A stretch of DNA of 18,558 nt from a virus. Shown here piece after piece: positions 1,483 to 7,487 of the stretch (its first letter is position 1; every line of letters begins with the position of its first letter). The notes under the pieces are model-generated. The model saw nothing but the letters and a program-made list of their open reading frames with translations. It did not search any database and was not told the DNA's origin. Position numbers and translations under genes: made by a program. The stretch lies in UHGV virus genome UHGV-0255022; one strand, given 5' to 3'.

Positions 1483-1621
1483 TTGTCCTCCTCTTAGCTG
1501 CTGAGGGAGTTTGTGACCGATATATCTGACATGATATTAAGCTCATGGCAGGTACATCTCTTGACTGGTCATAGAGATAAATTTAATGCTGAGAAATGCA
1601 GTATTGAATTTATCAATTTTT

Positions 1622-4965: not shown

Positions 4966-5256
4966 TTAGTGATTCAGGCCGTTGCCGCGTCCGTCGAGAA
5001 AAACTTCCACGAGCAAATCACGGGTATAAGTGCGCTCGATGCCGCGATGCAGATAAAGCCGTCCGCGTAAATTAGCTGATGCAGTCCAGGTACCATCTTT
5101 GTGTTTGACCAGCATTCCTGGCATGACCGCACCGCGATTAACGGTCTGCGTTCCGTAATGTTGATGAACCATAAAAACTCCTGCCCGTAAGCTGGGCTGC
5201 TGAACATATAGAGACTTCTGCGCGTATTCAGGCGGTGGATGGCCGCCGGTTGTCAT
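4966..5256 (-). CDS. Hypothetical protein, first ORF of the predicted pL transcript
   Basis: 96-aa ORF with a GAGG about 11 nt upstream. It has no arginine-rich N-like motif and no recognisable family. An alternative 77-aa frame (4974..5207) overlaps it. Confidence 0.35.
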
Positions 5257-5430
5257 AACTAAGCCGCCTCGTTGAAGCGACTAAGGTATGAAATGTTGAG
5301 TTAATTTCAGCTGGTCACACCGACGTTCACGCGTCCGTTTCACCCCTCGCACTCCCCGAAGCCTGCTGAAATTCAAACTGCGGATCTAAGCGGTCATCGC
5401 AACGGTGAATCAGGTAGTTGCCGTATCGTT

Positions 5431-5510
5431 GTGTTGTTGCGATGAACTTATTTAAAACTATAGTTGTTTTATCGTCAACAACAAAAGTTGTTTTATTGGT
5501 TGTTTTAGAT
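5431..5510 (-). promoter_or_regulatory. Predicted leftward early promoter pL with an OL operator cluster of GTTGTT/AACAAC half-sites
   Basis: Minus strand: -35 TTGACG (plus 5473-5478), 17-bp spacer, -10 TTAAAT (plus 5450-5455). It is embedded in repeated GTTGTT/AACAAC inverted half-sites (AACAAC-tttt-GTTGTT, GTTGTTGACG...AACAAC) that mirror the OR architecture. Confidence 0.5.
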
Positions 5511-5619
5511 ATAACTGGTTGTATTTAGGATGGATTTATTTTGTGACTTGAATCGCATAGCGATAACTGAAGCGAGGTTATGGTGGTTTTTTTAACGGTG
5601 TGTGTGATGAGGGGAGGGC

Positions 5620-5646
5620 AAAAGAAAACCCGGCACGGTGACCGGG
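5620..5646 (-). terminator. Intrinsic terminator downstream of the repressor gene
   Basis: Minus strand: CCCGG-tcaccgtg-CCGGG hairpin followed by ttttctttt. It lies between the cI stop (5768) and pL. Confidence 0.45.
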
Positions 5647-5767
5647 ATTCTTACGCCGTTAGGTAAAGATATTATTGCGGTGGCTTAATATTACTACCTA
5701 GAGCAAAGATAGGAATTAGTTCTTTACTGAATGAGCACAATGCCCAGTTGATAATTTTTAATTGGTA

Positions 5768-6457
5768 CTACCCATGCTTCCTATATGTCTGCGGCATGCT
5801 CCCAATAACCTTACCGAAGATGAACACCCGGTTCATCTCGTCTTTCTCGATCGGGTCCCACGGTGAGTAGCTTTTGTTATCAGAGATGACCAGCAGCTTA
5901 TCCTTCATCATTTGCAGGCGCTTTACATGGGCTGTGTCGTCGTACAGAAACGCATAGATACCATCACCGTCGAAAGATTTAACTGTGATATCAACGAACA
6001 GCAGATCACCTGGTTCGATCGTTCCTGACATGCTGTCACCACGCACGTTAATGATGCGGATATTTTCCGCCTTCCTACCATCGAACATGTGACGAGCATC
6101 GTCAAACGAGTACTCAACCGAGCGTAGAACTTCTACAAACTCACGGTTGATGACTCCCGGCCCAGCACTGACTTCTATATCAAGAACGTCAATCTTGAAG
6201 TATTTGGAATGGCTGACAGTTGATTGTATTGGTTGCACTGTACTGTCTGACATATTTCCAACGCCAGAAGATAACCATTCTGCGCGCACACCCAAAGCGT
6301 TCGCGATCTCCACGATTTTAGTTGTTTGATTAGCTTTCCCTGTTTCGATTTTCTGAATAGCAGCCTGGCTAACCCCGACCAAATCCCCAAGCGCCTTTTG
6401 TGTAAGGCCTCGCGCTAATCTGGCTTCTTTAAGTCTTTCTGAGAGTGTTGTTTTCAT
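5768..6457 (-). CDS. CI-type prophage repressor (N-terminal XRE HTH, C-terminal S24 LexA-like autopeptidase)
   Basis: HTH motif LTQKALGDLVGVSQAAIQKIETGK; an Ala-Gly cleavage site (SAGPG); catalytic Ser in GDSMSGT and Lys in HVKRL. The start is placed at MKTTLSERL (ATG 6457) rather than the ORF-track start at 6523, which lies inside the operator. It is divergent from the cro-like gene and probably leaderless. Confidence 0.85.
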   Translation of the reverse strand: MKTTLSERLKEARLARGLTQKALGDLVGVSQAAIQKIETGKANQTTKIVEIANALGVRAEWLSSGVGNMSDSTVQPIQSTVSHSKYFKIDVLDIEVSAGPGVINREFVEVLRSVEYSFDDARHMFDGRKAENIRIINVRGDSMSGTIEPGDLLFVDITVKSFDGDGIYAFLYDDTAHVKRLQMMKDKLLVISDNKSYSPWDPIEKDEMNRVFIFGKVIGSMPQTYRKHG

Positions 6458-6463
6458 AGTCCA

Positions 6464-6492
6464 AATGTACAACCAAGGTTTTATTCCATCAA
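6464..6492 (-). promoter_or_regulatory. Predicted PRM-like promoter for a leaderless repressor mRNA
   Basis: Minus strand: -35 TTGATG (plus 6487-6492), 17-bp spacer, -10 TACATT (plus 6464-6469), with the cI ATG about 7 nt downstream and no SD. Confidence 0.4.
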
Positions 6493-6498
6493 ACGAAA

Positions 6499-6534
6499 AT
6501 GGTTGTTGACTAAAAACAACCATAGTTTTAATCT
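6499..6534 (+). promoter_or_regulatory. PR promoter overlapping a 25-bp perfect palindromic operator
   Basis: Palindrome ATGGTTGTTgactaaaAACAACCAT (6499-6523). -35 TTGACT (6506-6511), 17-bp spacer, -10 TAATCT (6529-6534), then SD GGAGG (6552-6556) and the cro-like ATG at 6562. Confidence 0.6.
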
Positions 6535-6561
6535 TGATTCAAATTAACCACGGAGGTTGTT

Positions 6562-6792
6562 ATGAACCCAGCTATCAAAACAGCGATCAATATCGTTGGT
6601 TCACAAAAGAAACTGGGCGCTGCTTGCGAAGTTTCACAGCAGGCCGTCTATAAGTGGCTTCACAACAAAGCAAAGGTATCCCCTGAACATGTCGGCAGCA
6701 TTGTTACGGCTACTGGTGGAGTAGTGAAGGCATACCAGATTCGCCCGGATCTTCCGAAGTTGTTTCCACACACCGAAAAGAACGCAGCTTAA
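6562..6792 (+). CDS. Cro-like HTH regulator (YdaS-like)
   Basis: 76-aa ORF, first gene of the rightward operon, with an HTH (SQKKLGAACEVSQQAVYKWL) and a strong SD. Confidence 0.8.
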   Translation: MNPAIKTAINIVGSQKKLGAACEVSQQAVYKWLHNKAKVSPEHVGSIVTATGGVVKAYQIRPDLPKLFPHTEKNAA

Positions 6793-6861
6793 ATTTCCAT
6801 TTCACGCTCTTTAACAATAAGCAATCAACTTAACAGTCAATTCAAACTAAAGGAGTCAATT

Positions 6862-7401
6862 ATGCAACCACTTACATACCAACAGACTAGCGGATTTAGC
6901 CCGACTGCGGTGATAAATCGTTCTCAAACAAAACAGGTGCCAGGCCACGAAAAAATCCGTGATGCCGTCCGCGCCTGGTCGGCTGTAGATAATCAGGATG
7001 TCGTTGCCACACTCATTGTGAATGAGTATCTGGAGCAGGGCGGCGGCACCATCGATTTCCCTGATGATGTCAGCCGTGCACGCCAGAAGCTGTTCCGCTT
7101 CCTCGATAACAAATTCGATTCTGAAAAATACCGAAATAACGTGCGTGAACTGACCCCGGCAATTCTGGCGGTACTACCGCTGGAATATCGCGGTTACCTG
7201 GTTGAGCAGGATAGCTTCATGGCTAGGTTGGCTGAAATGGAAAAGGAACTCAGTGAGGCAAAACAGGCTGTCATTCTCAACGCACCACGCCACCAGAAAC
7301 TGAAGGAAATTAGTGAAGGTATTGTGTCGATGTTTCGTGTGGACCCAGATCTGGCTGGTCCATTGATGGCGATGGTTACTACCATGCTGGGGGCGATATG
7401 A
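6862..7401 (+). CDS. YdaT-like prophage protein in the CII position
   Basis: 179-aa ORF with SD aaaggag. The motifs EYLEQGGG and LTPAILAVLP resemble Rac-prophage YdaT as recalled. It lies between cro and O, where lambda has cII. Confidence 0.5.
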   Translation: MQPLTYQQTSGFSPTAVINRSQTKQVPGHEKIRDAVRAWSAVDNQDVVATLIVNEYLEQGGGTIDFPDDVSRARQKLFRFLDNKFDSEKYRNNVRELTPAILAVLPLEYRGYLVEQDSFMARLAEMEKELSEAKQAVILNAPRHQKLKEISEGIVSMFRVDPDLAGPLMAMVTTMLGAI

Positions 7402-7487
7402 CAGGTTCAGAAATGGCGAAAGCCGGTCTGCTGGAACAGAACCGACTTTCAGGTGCAAATCGTAACACACTCATTGCGGGAGGAATT

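What the first reader, a model, noticed from the sequence alone, without database searches (positions are those of the whole stretch)
6562..7401. YdaS/YdaT-type module replaces the canonical Cro/CII pair
The first rightward gene is a small HTH protein and the second is a 179-aa protein with YdaT-like motifs (EYLEQGGG, LTPAILAVLP) in the slot where lambda has CII. Whether this protein acts as a lysogeny regulator, as a toxin, or both is not settled from sequence. Its pairing with a LexA-type CI repressor and lambda-type O/P is a mosaic worth examining.
Basis: partly seen in the sequence, partly recalled or inferred. Interest (0 to 1): 0.5.

Follow-up and report, generated by a model that had tools for sequence, protein, structure and literature searches.

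The report
Phi80-type Cro/CII switch genes
These two genes are the ordinary, already described lysis-or-lysogeny regulators (a Cro-like protein and a phi80-type "YdaT" CII) of a very common E. coli lambdoid prophage, not a toxin pair. Following them up turned up a conserved, apparently unreported candidate binding site for this CII type in front of the phage's ninB-to-Q genes.

Summary
Observation confirmed: ORFs 6562-6792 (76 aa) and 6862-7401 (179 aa) match Pfam YdaS (62 bits, cut-off 30) and YdaT (103 bits, cut-off 21).

They sit between an HTH+S24 repressor and lambda-type O/P genes.

The 179-aa protein is 66% identical over its full length to phage phi80 CII. Its model matches the solved YdaT structures (8bt1, 3c4r).

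The region is 99.8% identical to phage PhiR34_1, where it is annotated cI/Cro/cII/O/P. It occurs in 2,223 of 5,426 complete E. coli genomes.

Published work shows YdaS and YdaT are Cro and CII equivalents, not a toxin-antitoxin pair. Verdict for the finding: already known.

Side lead: the window's only perfect match to the published YdaT operator, TTGATT-N6-AATCAA, is at 14326-14343, on the -35 of a conserved promoter upstream of ninB.
- Half-sites are conserved while the spacer varies.
- The box is present in 54 of 65 phi80-type-cII loci and 0 of 45 lambda-cII loci. Four Klebsiella phages with non-YdaT cII lack it.

A weaker box inside cII (6910-6927) lies 41.5 bp upstream of the start site implied by a conserved leftward TANNNT, a plausible P_RE. 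Both sites are inferred, not tested.

The parts
5768..6457 (-). CI-type repressor (HTH_3 + Peptidase_S24). The ORF extends to 6523, but the likely start is MKTTL at 6457.
   Evidence: Pfam PF00717 at 67 bits and PF01381 at 49 bits; phrog_4 match starts at residue 23. Only 24% identical to phi80 CI.
6458..6561 (.). Divergent operator/promoter region (O_R, P_R, P_RM): repeats at 6469-6486 and 6516-6533, and the palindrome ATGGTTGTT-N7-AACAACCAT at 6499-6523. Related repeats at 5415-5515 would be O_L.
   Evidence: Repeat families D2-D4 and I1/I3/I6; the palindrome is listed. The promoter assignment is by eye only.
6562..6792 (+). Cro-slot gene, YdaS family (76 aa).
   Evidence: PF15943 at 62 bits; phrog_35 at E 1.5e-27. 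Best PDB hit is Cro 3bd1. Annotated Cro in PhiR34_1.
6793..6861 (.). cro-cII spacer with a boxA-like CGCTCTTTAACAA at 6806-6818. This spacer travels with cro, not with cII.
   Evidence: Sequence. The same cII is joined to two unrelated spacers, with the junction at the ATG. No homology to the phi80 spacer.
6862..7401 (+). CII-slot gene, YdaT family, phi80 type (179 aa). Residues 1-28 disordered; POU-like HTH domain 29-113; recognition helix 73-82 with R79; long helix 119-138; two further C-terminal helices.
   Evidence: PF06254 at 103 bits; phrog_163 'CII-like transcriptional activator' at E 6e-67. 66% identical to phi80 CII. Model. Foldseek top hits 8bt1 and 3c4r, TM 0.66-0.69. Profile against PDB gives E 3.5e-8.
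6910..6927 (.). Candidate CII operator inside cII codons 17-22 (GTGATAAATCGTTCTCAA). Inferred.
   Evidence: The same position (+49 to +66) holds TTGATTTCGATTTATCAA in ENT1 and ATGATAAATCGCAATCAA in mEp237. NTGAT[AT] and TC are kept while the amino acids vary.
6884..6889 (-). Candidate -10 (TAGTCT) of a leftward, CII-dependent P_RE-like promoter. It places the box centre at -41.5. Inferred.
   Evidence: TANNNT is conserved at this position in all 9 aligned cII genes although the encoded residues differ. No consensus promoter was found here by the scan.
7400..7513 (-). Candidate oop/M3-like antisense RNA unit: promoter TTGAAT-17-CATAAT (7513-7485) and hairpin 7417-7451. Inferred.
   Evidence: Promoter scan. 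Fold of -25.2 kcal/mol, z = -2.85. Same position as the annotated M3 RNA of phi80 and HK639.
7488..8417 (+). Lambda-type replication initiator O. The ORF opens at 7398, but the likely start is 7488.
   Evidence: PF04492 at 116 bits; family matches start at residue 31. This ATG aligns with the phi80 gp15 start.
8414..9115 (+). Lambda-type helicase loader P.
   Evidence: PF06992 at 206 bits.
14326..14343 (.). Perfect YdaT-type box TTGATTATGAATAATCAA, covering the -35 and spacer of the nin-leader promoter. Proposed distal CII operator. Inferred.
   Evidence: Only perfect match in the window, against 0.01 expected. Half-sites conserved with many different spacers. Tracks YdaT-type cII.
14349..14511 (+). 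nin leader: -10 CATAAT (14349-14354), covarying hairpin 14359-14385 with loop CCTGAACAA, and the small ORF orf33/ylcH (14410-14511), followed by ninB/ybcN at 14508-14963.
   Evidence: Putative promoter and orf33 are annotated in phage 82 record X92588. 14 stem variants all fold to the same hairpin. NinB matches phrog_72.

Best explanation
The two genes are the rightward early regulators of the immunity switch of a lambdoid E. coli prophage. Gene 1 (YdaS family) is the Cro equivalent, a small HTH protein that binds the O_R operators and turns down repressor synthesis. Gene 2 (YdaT family, phi80 type) is the CII equivalent. It has a POU-like HTH domain followed by a long helix that in solved homologues makes a tetramer. 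It is made early after infection, binds TTGATT-N6-AATCAA-like inverted repeats, and activates leftward transcription that establishes CI repressor synthesis. Shown here: family membership, fold, gene position, and near-identity to annotated phages. Taken from the literature on homologues: DNA binding, tetramer formation, P_RE activation, and absence of toxin-antitoxin behaviour. Inferred here: (a) the cognate P_RE lies inside the first 66 nt of cII itself, with the box at 6910-6927, a TANNNT -10 at 6889-6884 and the box centred at -41.5, which is class II activator geometry; (b) the same protein binds a perfect box on the -35 of the conserved promoter in front of ninB-to-Q (14326-14343), most likely repressing it and so delaying the late genes, the end that lambda reaches through P_aQ.
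For: - Profile matches are well above the cut-offs, and PHROGs names the family 'CII-like transcriptional activator'.
- The protein is 66% identical over its full length to phi80 cII.
- The model has the published YdaT helix pattern, including the 14-residue alpha2-alpha3 loop. Its six best PDB matches are YdaT chains.
- The recognition helix RARQKLFRFLD aligns with CP-933P RNTQKIFRWLD and keeps the essential Arg (PMC9986795, PMC11879457).
- The region is 99.8% identical in DNA to inducible phage PhiR34_1, annotated cI/Cro/cII/O/P.
- In the literature, YdaT activates P_RE933P and is not a toxin-antitoxin component (PMC8630535). Rac YdaT binds a box at its own start codon and activates racR 29-fold (PMC11879457).
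- For P_RE: box and TANNNT are conserved in 9 aligned cII genes despite varying residues, and the mosaic junction is exactly at the ATG.
- For the nin box.
- Rac-SA53 and an Aeromonas phage have one-mismatch boxes just upstream of xis-int, a P_I-like position.
Against: - No experiment exists on this protein or on any phi80-type member in the papers I could read.
- The model has only moderate confidence (mean pLDDT 64.5).
- Near cII there is no close match to the published box. The intragenic site has 4 mismatches, and sites with up to 3 mismatches occur at chance frequency in the window (21 found against 15.7 expected).
- The consensus promoter scan finds no leftward promoter between cro and cII.
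- Part of the conservation at +49 to +66 could be protein-coding constraint (the MINRxQ motif).
- The association between the nin box and cII type is lineage-structured. Two of four contigs with lambda-type cII still carry a perfect box.
Confidence: 0.85

Rival explanations
1. YdaS and YdaT form a toxin-antitoxin (or toxin-repressor) pair whose job is addiction or growth arrest, as the Pfam names suggest.
For: - The Pfam names are 'Bacterial toxin YdaS/YdaT', and RefSeq calls the protein 'toxin YdaT domain-containing protein'.
- Derepression or overexpression of Rac ydaS/ydaT is lethal (PMC5700377, PMC5700373, listed).
Against: - The names come from a computer prediction. Jobling reports that a 2010 study found no evidence for a toxin-antitoxin pair (PMC5917428).
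- CP-933P YdaT is not toxic and acts as a transcription activator (PMC8630535).
- Rac YdaT toxicity runs through transcriptional activation of rcsA (PMC11879457).
- Here the genes sit exactly in the Cro and CII slots of a complete, inducible phage type.
- The fold is a DNA-binding HTH domain.
Confidence: 0.03
2. The 179-aa protein is a DNA-binding regulator, but mainly a repressor of lytic or delayed-early promoters (for example the nin-leader promoter or P_R) rather than an activator of repressor establishment.
For: - The only perfect box in the window overlaps a -35 hexamer and spacer (-35 to -18), which is repressor-like geometry.
- A 2-mismatch box lies between the putative P_R -10 and the cro start (6534-6551).
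- Rac YdaT also binds over P_ydaST.
Against: - Both characterised homologues activate a leftward repressor promoter.
- The intragenic box and TANNNT geometry (-41.5) conserved across 9 aligned cII genes fits activation.
- The two activities do not exclude each other.
Confidence: 0.1
3. The nin-region palindrome is not a CII site at all. It is bound by a host factor or another phage protein, or is simply the -35 region of a promoter, and it co-occurs with YdaT-type cII only because both belong to the same phage lineages.
For: - Two contigs with lambda-type cII have a perfect box.
- The control sets are each dominated by one lineage.
- No binding data exist.
Against: - The box matches exactly an operator defined by footprinting for two family members that are only about 30% identical to each other and to this protein.
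- The half-sites are invariant, while the spacer takes 11 forms in one sample and at least 20 in the other.
- The change in phi80 is symmetric: TTGATA-N6-TATCAA.
- The box occurs with at least four cII sub-lineages and three NinB types.
- Homologous leaders in four Klebsiella phages with non-YdaT cII lack it.
- cI, cro, Q and the replication genes differ among the box-bearing phages, whereas the cII type is shared.
Confidence: 0.35

Closest known systems
Phage phi80 CII (PHI80_49; records JX871397 and X13065)
   Same: 66% identical over the full length, with the same length (179 vs 180 aa). Same slot between a Cro-like gene and the replication genes. An antisense M3/oop-like RNA unit follows the gene. 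Same intragenic box position and a homologous nin-leader element.
   Different: The partner genes differ. CI is 24% identical, and Cro shows only a 26-residue local match. The replication genes here are lambda O/P type rather than phi80 gp15/gp14. The phi80 nin box is the symmetric variant TTGATA-N6-TATCAA.
CP-933P YdaT (PDB 8bt1) and its homologue 3c4r
   Same: Same Pfam family and fold: POU-like HTH domain, long alpha2-alpha3 loop, long oligomerisation helix. The Arg of the recognition helix is conserved. Same CII slot (PMC9986795).
   Different: Only 27% identity. The window protein has a 27-residue disordered N-terminal extension and two extra C-terminal helices. The CP-933P operator lies at the end of ydaS, whereas here the best candidate lies inside cII. 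The CP-933P repressor is PaaR2 with a toxin-antitoxin pair attached.
Rac prophage YdaT (E. coli K-12)
   Same: A family member that binds ATGATT-N6-AATCAA at the start of its own gene and activates a leftward repressor promoter (PMC11879457). The candidate box here is at a roughly equivalent position relative to the HTH-coding region.
   Different: About 37% identity to the Rac-SA53 homologue, over part of the protein. Rac YdaT also activates the host gene rcsA and is toxic when overexpressed; this has not been tested for the phi80 type.
Lambda CII
   Same: Same genetic slot, same proposed role in establishing lysogeny, and an operator inside its own 5' coding region. An antisense oop RNA follows the gene.
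   Different: No Pfam match to the lambda CII family at E <= 1. Lambda CII is 97 aa and binds the direct repeat TTGC-N6-TTGC as an asymmetric tetramer. YdaT is a symmetric tetramer that binds inverted repeats (PMC9986795).
Cro proteins of lambdoid phages (P22 Cro family; Xfaso-1 Cro, PDB 3bd1)
   Same: The 76-aa protein is a single HTH domain in the first rightward position. It has weak hits to P22_Cro and HTH_3, and its best PDB hit is a Cro protein.
   Different: Its operator specificity is its own. The P22_Cro profile is matched below the cut-off (22.8 against 30.2 bits).

Membership tests
YdaT family (PF06254; phi80-type CII) | Profile match above the curated cut-off | tested here: met
   103.4 bits against 21; profile positions 1-90 of 92. 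phrog_163 at E 6e-67 over the full profile.
YdaT family (PF06254; phi80-type CII) | POU-like all-helical HTH domain with a long alpha2-alpha3 loop, followed by a long C-terminal helix | tested here: met
   The model has helices 29-43 and 45-58, a 14-residue loop, then helices 73-82, 88-104, 107-113 and 119-138. The six best PDB matches are 8bt1/3c4r chains with probability 1.00 and TM 0.66-0.69; the next hit has probability 0.41. The model has only moderate confidence (pLDDT 64.5).
YdaT family (PF06254; phi80-type CII) | Conserved Arg in the recognition helix (CP-933P R60, Rac R57) | tested here: met
   R79 in ...RQKLFRFLD aligns with ...TQKIFRWLD. It is invariant in 31 homologues.
YdaT family (PF06254; phi80-type CII) | Position as second rightward gene, after a Cro-like gene, divergent from the repressor and upstream of the replication genes | tested here: met
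YdaT family (PF06254; phi80-type CII) | Tetramer formed through the long helix | not testable with these tools
   Only a monomer was modelled. Helix 119-138 is present.
YdaT family (PF06254; phi80-type CII) | Binds a TTGATT-N6-AATCAA-type inverted repeat and activates a leftward repressor promoter | not testable with these tools
   Candidate sites only: 6910-6927 (degenerate) and 14326-14343 (perfect).
YdaS family (PF15943; Cro-type HTH) | Profile match above the cut-off, and first rightward gene next to the operators | tested here: met
   62.2 bits against 30. The gene starts 104 nt from the likely repressor start, across a repeat-rich region.
Lambda CII family (Pfam Phage_CII) | Sequence match to the lambda CII profile | tested here: not met
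   No such family appears among the Pfam hits at E <= 1. The window protein finds nothing in a locus that does encode a lambda-type cII (L017), where the lambda CII query hits at E 1.6e-12.
Type II toxin-antitoxin pair | A toxin whose activity is neutralised by direct binding of the adjacent antitoxin, in an autoregulated two-gene operon | not testable with these tools
   Not tested here. Papers read here (PMC5917428, PMC8630535, PMC11879457) argue against it for homologues. The context here is a phage immunity region.

The most novel reading that the evidence does not exclude
YdaT-type CII proteins have a second, family-wide operator that has not been described. It is a TTGATT-N6-AATCAA palindrome laid over the -35 of a conserved promoter whose transcript begins with a covarying hairpin (loop CCUGAACAA), in front of orf33/ylcH-ninB-...-Q. 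Through it, CII would directly hold back delayed-early and late gene expression while it activates repressor synthesis from a promoter embedded in its own first 22 codons. The same perfect box sits in the defective DLP12 prophage of E. coli K-12, so Rac YdaT could regulate another prophage in the same cell.
Probability: 0.5. Interest if true: 0.5.

Novelty: already known. Interest (0 to 1): 0.25.

Why it matters
For the finding itself, very little. It adds one more copy of a well-populated, already characterised regulator pair, and it shows again that the Pfam and RefSeq label 'toxin' is misleading for these genes.

The side lead would matter modestly to people who study phage decision circuits. 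It would give the non-lambda type of CII a defined regulon: an intragenic P_RE, a P_I-like site in some lineages, and a nin-leader operator. It would also suggest how phages without P_aQ restrain late genes during establishment of lysogeny. It can be tested at once with proteins and assays that already exist, including in E. coli K-12 (Rac YdaT on the DLP12 ylcH promoter).

Tried and rejected
1. I looked for the published YdaT box next to cII. There are only degenerate matches, and sites with up to 3 mismatches occur at chance frequency in the window (21 against 15.7 expected).

2. I rejected the spacer site at 6811-6828 (3 mismatches) as the cognate operator. The spacer belongs to the cro module: the same cII is joined to an unrelated spacer in other prophages, with the junction at the ATG.

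3. I looked for a P_I-like box upstream of xis-int in the window and found none with 3 mismatches or fewer. Rac-SA53 and an Aeromonas phage do have one.

4. Rfam at gathering threshold finds nothing in the window. That covers the oop-like unit, the nin hairpin and any put- or nut-like element.

5. tblastn with the window protein missed the divergent cII of phage ENT1, which at first looked like an exception to the association. Reading the ORFs resolved it.

6. My first tabulation script located ninB in only 34 of 80 loci. I redid it.

7. A column-wise covariation count on the hairpin was abandoned because MAFFT put the stems in different registers. I folded each variant separately instead.

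8. Inverted-repeat and consensus promoter scans found no obvious P_RE between cro and cII.

9. I considered the toxin-antitoxin reading and rejected it on the literature and the genetic context.
Full report

Yes. The window has an ATG-initiated 76-aa ORF at 6562-6792 and a 179-aa ORF at 6862-7401, both rightward. The second has AAGGAG 6 nt before its ATG.

The profile search it proposed is clearly positive:
- The 76-aa protein matches PF15943 (YdaS) at 62.2 bits against a cut-off of 30.
- The 179-aa protein matches PF06254 (YdaT) at 103.4 bits against a cut-off of 21, over positions 1-90 of the 92-position profile.

PHROGs places the two in phrog_35 (transcriptional repressor) and phrog_163 (CII-like transcriptional activator, E 6e-67, full profile length).

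The neighbours are as described. To the left is a leftward HTH_3 + Peptidase_S24 repressor. Downstream are Phage_rep_O and Phage_lambda_P genes.

**2. What is it?**

The 3.8-kb stretch 5400-9200 is 99.8% identical in DNA to Escherichia phage PhiR34_1. The genes there are annotated cI, Cro, cII, O and P. About 15 sequenced E. coli lambdoid phages encode the same CII-slot protein at 95% identity or more.

The protein is 66% identical over its whole length to the cII product of phage phi80. It is 51-72% identical to the 'CII' proteins of mEp237, HK225, HK639, CobraSix and several Klebsiella phages.

Phage phi80 has the same layout: cI, a Cro-like gene, cII, an oop-like M3 RNA, then O-like and P-like genes. 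By contrast, the repressor is only 24% identical to phi80 CI, and the Cro-slot protein shows only a 26-residue local match to phi80 gp30. The cII gene also sits beside other repressor and replication modules in other phages. This is ordinary lambdoid mosaicism.

The cro-cII DNA occurs in 2,223 of 5,426 complete E. coli genomes, and at 80% coverage or more in 1,508. RefSeq labels the protein 'toxin YdaT domain-containing protein'.

**3. Fold**

An AlphaFold2 model built on 31 homologues has moderate confidence (mean pLDDT 64.5). Its elements are:
- residues 1-28, disordered
- helices 29-43 and 45-58
- a 14-residue loop
- a recognition helix, 73-82
- helices 88-104 and 107-113
- a long helix, 119-138
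- two further C-terminal helices

This is the topology published for CP-933P YdaT, including the long alpha2-alpha3 loop (PMC9986795). The six best PDB matches are the chains of 8bt1 (YdaT) and 3c4r, with probability 1.00, target-normalised TM 0.66-0.69 and 27% identity. The next hit has probability 0.41. A profile of the homologues finds 8bt1 at E 3.5e-8.

The recognition helix RARQKLFRFLD aligns with CP-933P RNTQKIFRWLD. R79 corresponds to the Arg that is essential for DNA binding (CP-933P R60, Rac R57).

**4. What the literature already says**

- Jobling (PMC5917428) pointed out that YdaS and YdaT had been identified as Cro and CII homologues in 2003. He also noted that the 'toxin' label comes from a prediction program.
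- Jurenas et al. (PMC8630535) showed that CP-933P YdaT is not toxic and activates a P_RE-like promoter. They also noted its homology to phi80 CII.
- Prolic-Kalinsek et al. (PMC9986795) solved the structure. They showed a tetramer and footprinted TTGATT-N6-AATCAA.
- Wons et al. (PMC11879457) showed that Rac YdaT binds ATGATT-N6-AATCAA at its own start codon and activates racR 29-fold. It cross-recognises the CP-933P box, also binds quite degenerate sites (7 of 12 positions), and is toxic on overexpression through rcsA.

The module in the window is a known kind of thing, present in nearly identical form in annotated phages.

**5. How it most likely works here**

Identity and general role follow from sections 2-4. 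I then looked for the cis-sites.

*No close box near cII.* The published box is not present near cII in good form. Matches with up to 3 mismatches occur at chance frequency (21 against 15.7 expected). The homology between this cII and the phi80-type genes starts exactly at the ATG. In IMG/VR prophages the same cII gene is joined to two unrelated cro-plus-spacer modules, again with the junction at the ATG. A site that must co-evolve with CII should therefore lie inside the gene, as lambda's does.

*An intragenic candidate.* At +49 to +66 every phi80-type cII carries an NTGAT[A/T]-N6-NNTCNN motif:

| Phage | Motif at +49 to +66 |
|---|---|
| ENT1 (divergent) | TTGATTTCGATTTATCAA |
| mEp237 | ATGATAAATCGCAATCAA |
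| Kp5LV | CTGATAAAGCGAAATCAA |
| window (6910-6927) | GTGATAAATCGTTCTCAA |

The encoded residues vary (VINRSQ, MINRAQ, MIYQNR, LIKRNQ, LISIYQ). The rare Ile codon ATA is used in most of these genes.

*A candidate -10.* Twenty nucleotides further along the minus strand, all nine aligned cII genes have TANNNT. In the window this is TAGTCT at 6889-6884. It is kept although the residues encoded there differ. If that hexamer is a -10, the box is centred at -41.5, the usual place for a class II activator, and the leftward start would be near 6877.

This arrangement would also explain why phi80-type proteins carry a 27-residue N-terminal extension that is disordered in the model and absent from Rac and CP-933P YdaT. 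All of this is inference. The consensus scan finds no promoter there, as expected for an activator-dependent promoter, and part of the conservation may be protein-level.

*An oop-like unit.* Downstream of cII there is a promoter-like site on the minus strand (TTGAAT-17-CATAAT, 7513-7485). It is followed by a stable hairpin (7417-7451; -25.2 kcal/mol, z = -2.85). This is the position of the annotated M3/oop RNA of phi80 and HK639. The O gene therefore probably starts at 7488, not 7398.

**6. A lead outside the given coordinates**

*The site.* The window contains exactly one perfect TTGATT-N6-AATCAA, at 14326-14343, against 0.01 expected. It lies between an esterase-like gene and ninB/ybcN. It covers the -35 hexamer (TTGATT) and spacer of a promoter whose -10 is CATAAT (14349-14354). 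Mahdi and colleagues annotated that promoter as putative in the phage 82 record X92588.

*Conservation.* In an alignment of five phages the half-sites are kept, the spacer differs, and homology breaks just upstream of the box. Phages phi80 and HK225 have the symmetric variant TTGATA-N6-TATCAA. Among 80 IMG/VR contigs with a close NinB:
- 60 have a perfect box, with 11 different spacers.
- 10 more have one mismatch.
- The boxes with at most one mismatch start 180-183 nt before ninB.

*Association with cII type.*
- All 19 complete phage genomes that share this segment at megablast level are among the 46 or so records (of 50,697) with YdaT-type cII.
- A more sensitive search adds CobraSix, phi80 and HK225, which are also YdaT-type. 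It also adds 19 Klebsiella phages that share only the ninB-proximal part and are not on the YdaT list.
- Four of those Klebsiella phages were examined. Three have lambda-type cII and one another type. All have the homologous leader (GATAAT, a hairpin with loop CCUGAGCAA or UCUGGACAA, a small ORF, ninB), but none has a box better than 4 mismatches.
- Of phi80-type cII loci with at least 8 kb downstream, 54 of 65 have one box 3.0-7.3 kb from cII, with at least 20 spacers. Of lambda-cII loci, 0 of 45 do (454 kb; Fisher p about 1e-20).
- All 38 distinct contexts have the same architecture.

*Caveats.* The samples are lineage-structured, so the p-value overstates independence. Of four contigs with lambda-type cII and a ybcN-type NinB, two carry a perfect box.

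*The transcript.* The transcript from this promoter would begin with a hairpin. The stem sequence differs among 14 variants, yet each folds to 9-10 bp around the same 9-nt loop. No Rfam family matches.

*Independent lineages.* These suggest the specificity is shared across the family. Rac-SA53 has one-mismatch boxes on the ydaT start codon and just upstream of its xis-like/int genes. Aeromonas phage pAEv1818 has one just upstream of xis/int.

*K-12.* E. coli K-12 DLP12 carries a perfect box upstream of ylcH-ybcN. The Rac YdaT paper does not mention that site. rusA, downstream in DLP12, is known to need an inserted promoter for expression (PMC4118853). So in K-12 this promoter is either weak or its transcript is terminated early.

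*Reading.* My reading is that this is a distal CII operator. The geometry (-35 to -18) suggests repression. That would restrain ninB-to-Q transcription while lysogeny is being established, which is the end lambda reaches through P_aQ. I put this at about 0.5.

**7. Comparison and novelty**

By every feature testable here, the 179-aa protein is a member of the YdaT family, of the phi80 sub-type. It works like lambda CII, but no Pfam match places it in that family. The 76-aa protein is a Cro-type HTH protein of the YdaS family.

The module is already known and very common. The interest of the finding as given is low. The nin-region box, the intragenic P_RE model and the covarying leader hairpin are new observations as far as the literature I could search goes. 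They are untested.

**8. Verdict**

- Observation: confirmed.
- Interpretation: supported, but its 'open question' is out of date.
- Novelty: already known.
- Interest: 0.25, carried mostly by the side lead.

Noticed in passing
window 14326-14343 (also L001 12985-13002; L260 3785-3802 = E. coli K-12 DLP12): The only perfect match in the window to the published YdaT operator TTGATT-N6-AATCAA lies on the -35 of a conserved promoter upstream of orf33/ylcH-ninB. The half-sites are invariant and the spacer is hypervariable. The box tracks YdaT-type cII across phages. A perfect copy also exists in DLP12 of K-12.
   Followed up: yes
window 14359-14385: A hairpin sits right after the nin-leader -10. 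Its stem takes many different complementary sequences across phages, while the 9-nt loop CCUGAACA(A/C) is kept. It resembles a boxB-type element. There is no Rfam match and its function is unknown.
   Followed up: partly
window 7400-7513, minus strand: A candidate oop/M3-like antisense RNA: promoter-like TTGAAT-17-CATAAT plus a stable hairpin between cII and O. It implies that O starts at 7488, not at 7398 as annotated in the related phage record.
   Followed up: partly
window 5768-6523, minus strand: The repressor ORF has a 22-codon 5' extension that runs through the operator palindrome. The family matches begin at the internal Met (6457). The long form annotated in PhiR34_1 would leave only 38 bp for the whole divergent promoter region and is probably wrong.
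   Followed up: partly
window 4966-5767 and 6806-6818: No ORF of 40 aa or more lies between the O_L repeats (5415-5515) and the Kil-like ORF (4966-5256), so there is no evident N gene. Yet the cro-cII spacer carries a good boxA-like CGCTCTTTAACAA with no obvious boxB hairpin after it. How early antitermination works in this phage is unclear.
   Followed up: no
window 9365-10906 and 11184-12980: Two adjacent ORFs (513 and 598 aa) match positions 1-468 and 689-1318 of the 1,642-position profile phrog_7803. Together they look like one large gene that is split or partly deleted. It is inserted between P and the nin region, where PhiR34_1 has ren-emrE-ybcK-ybcL-ybcM instead.
   Followed up: no
window 13017-14060, minus strand: A leftward esterase-like gene (phrog_3341) lies just upstream of the nin-leader promoter. 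It is another cargo gene that is absent from PhiR34_1.
   Followed up: no
L098 (Rac-SA53) 2326-2343; L099 (Aeromonas phage pAEv1818) 12052-12069: One-mismatch YdaT boxes lie directly upstream of the leftward xis-int genes in two unrelated YdaT-encoding phages. This is the position of lambda's CII-dependent P_I. The window has no such box upstream of its own xis-int.
   Followed up: partly
window 1601-1615: The palindrome ATTGAATTTATCAAT lies between xis and the next leftward gene. Its spacing differs from the YdaT box, and its meaning is unknown.
   Followed up: no
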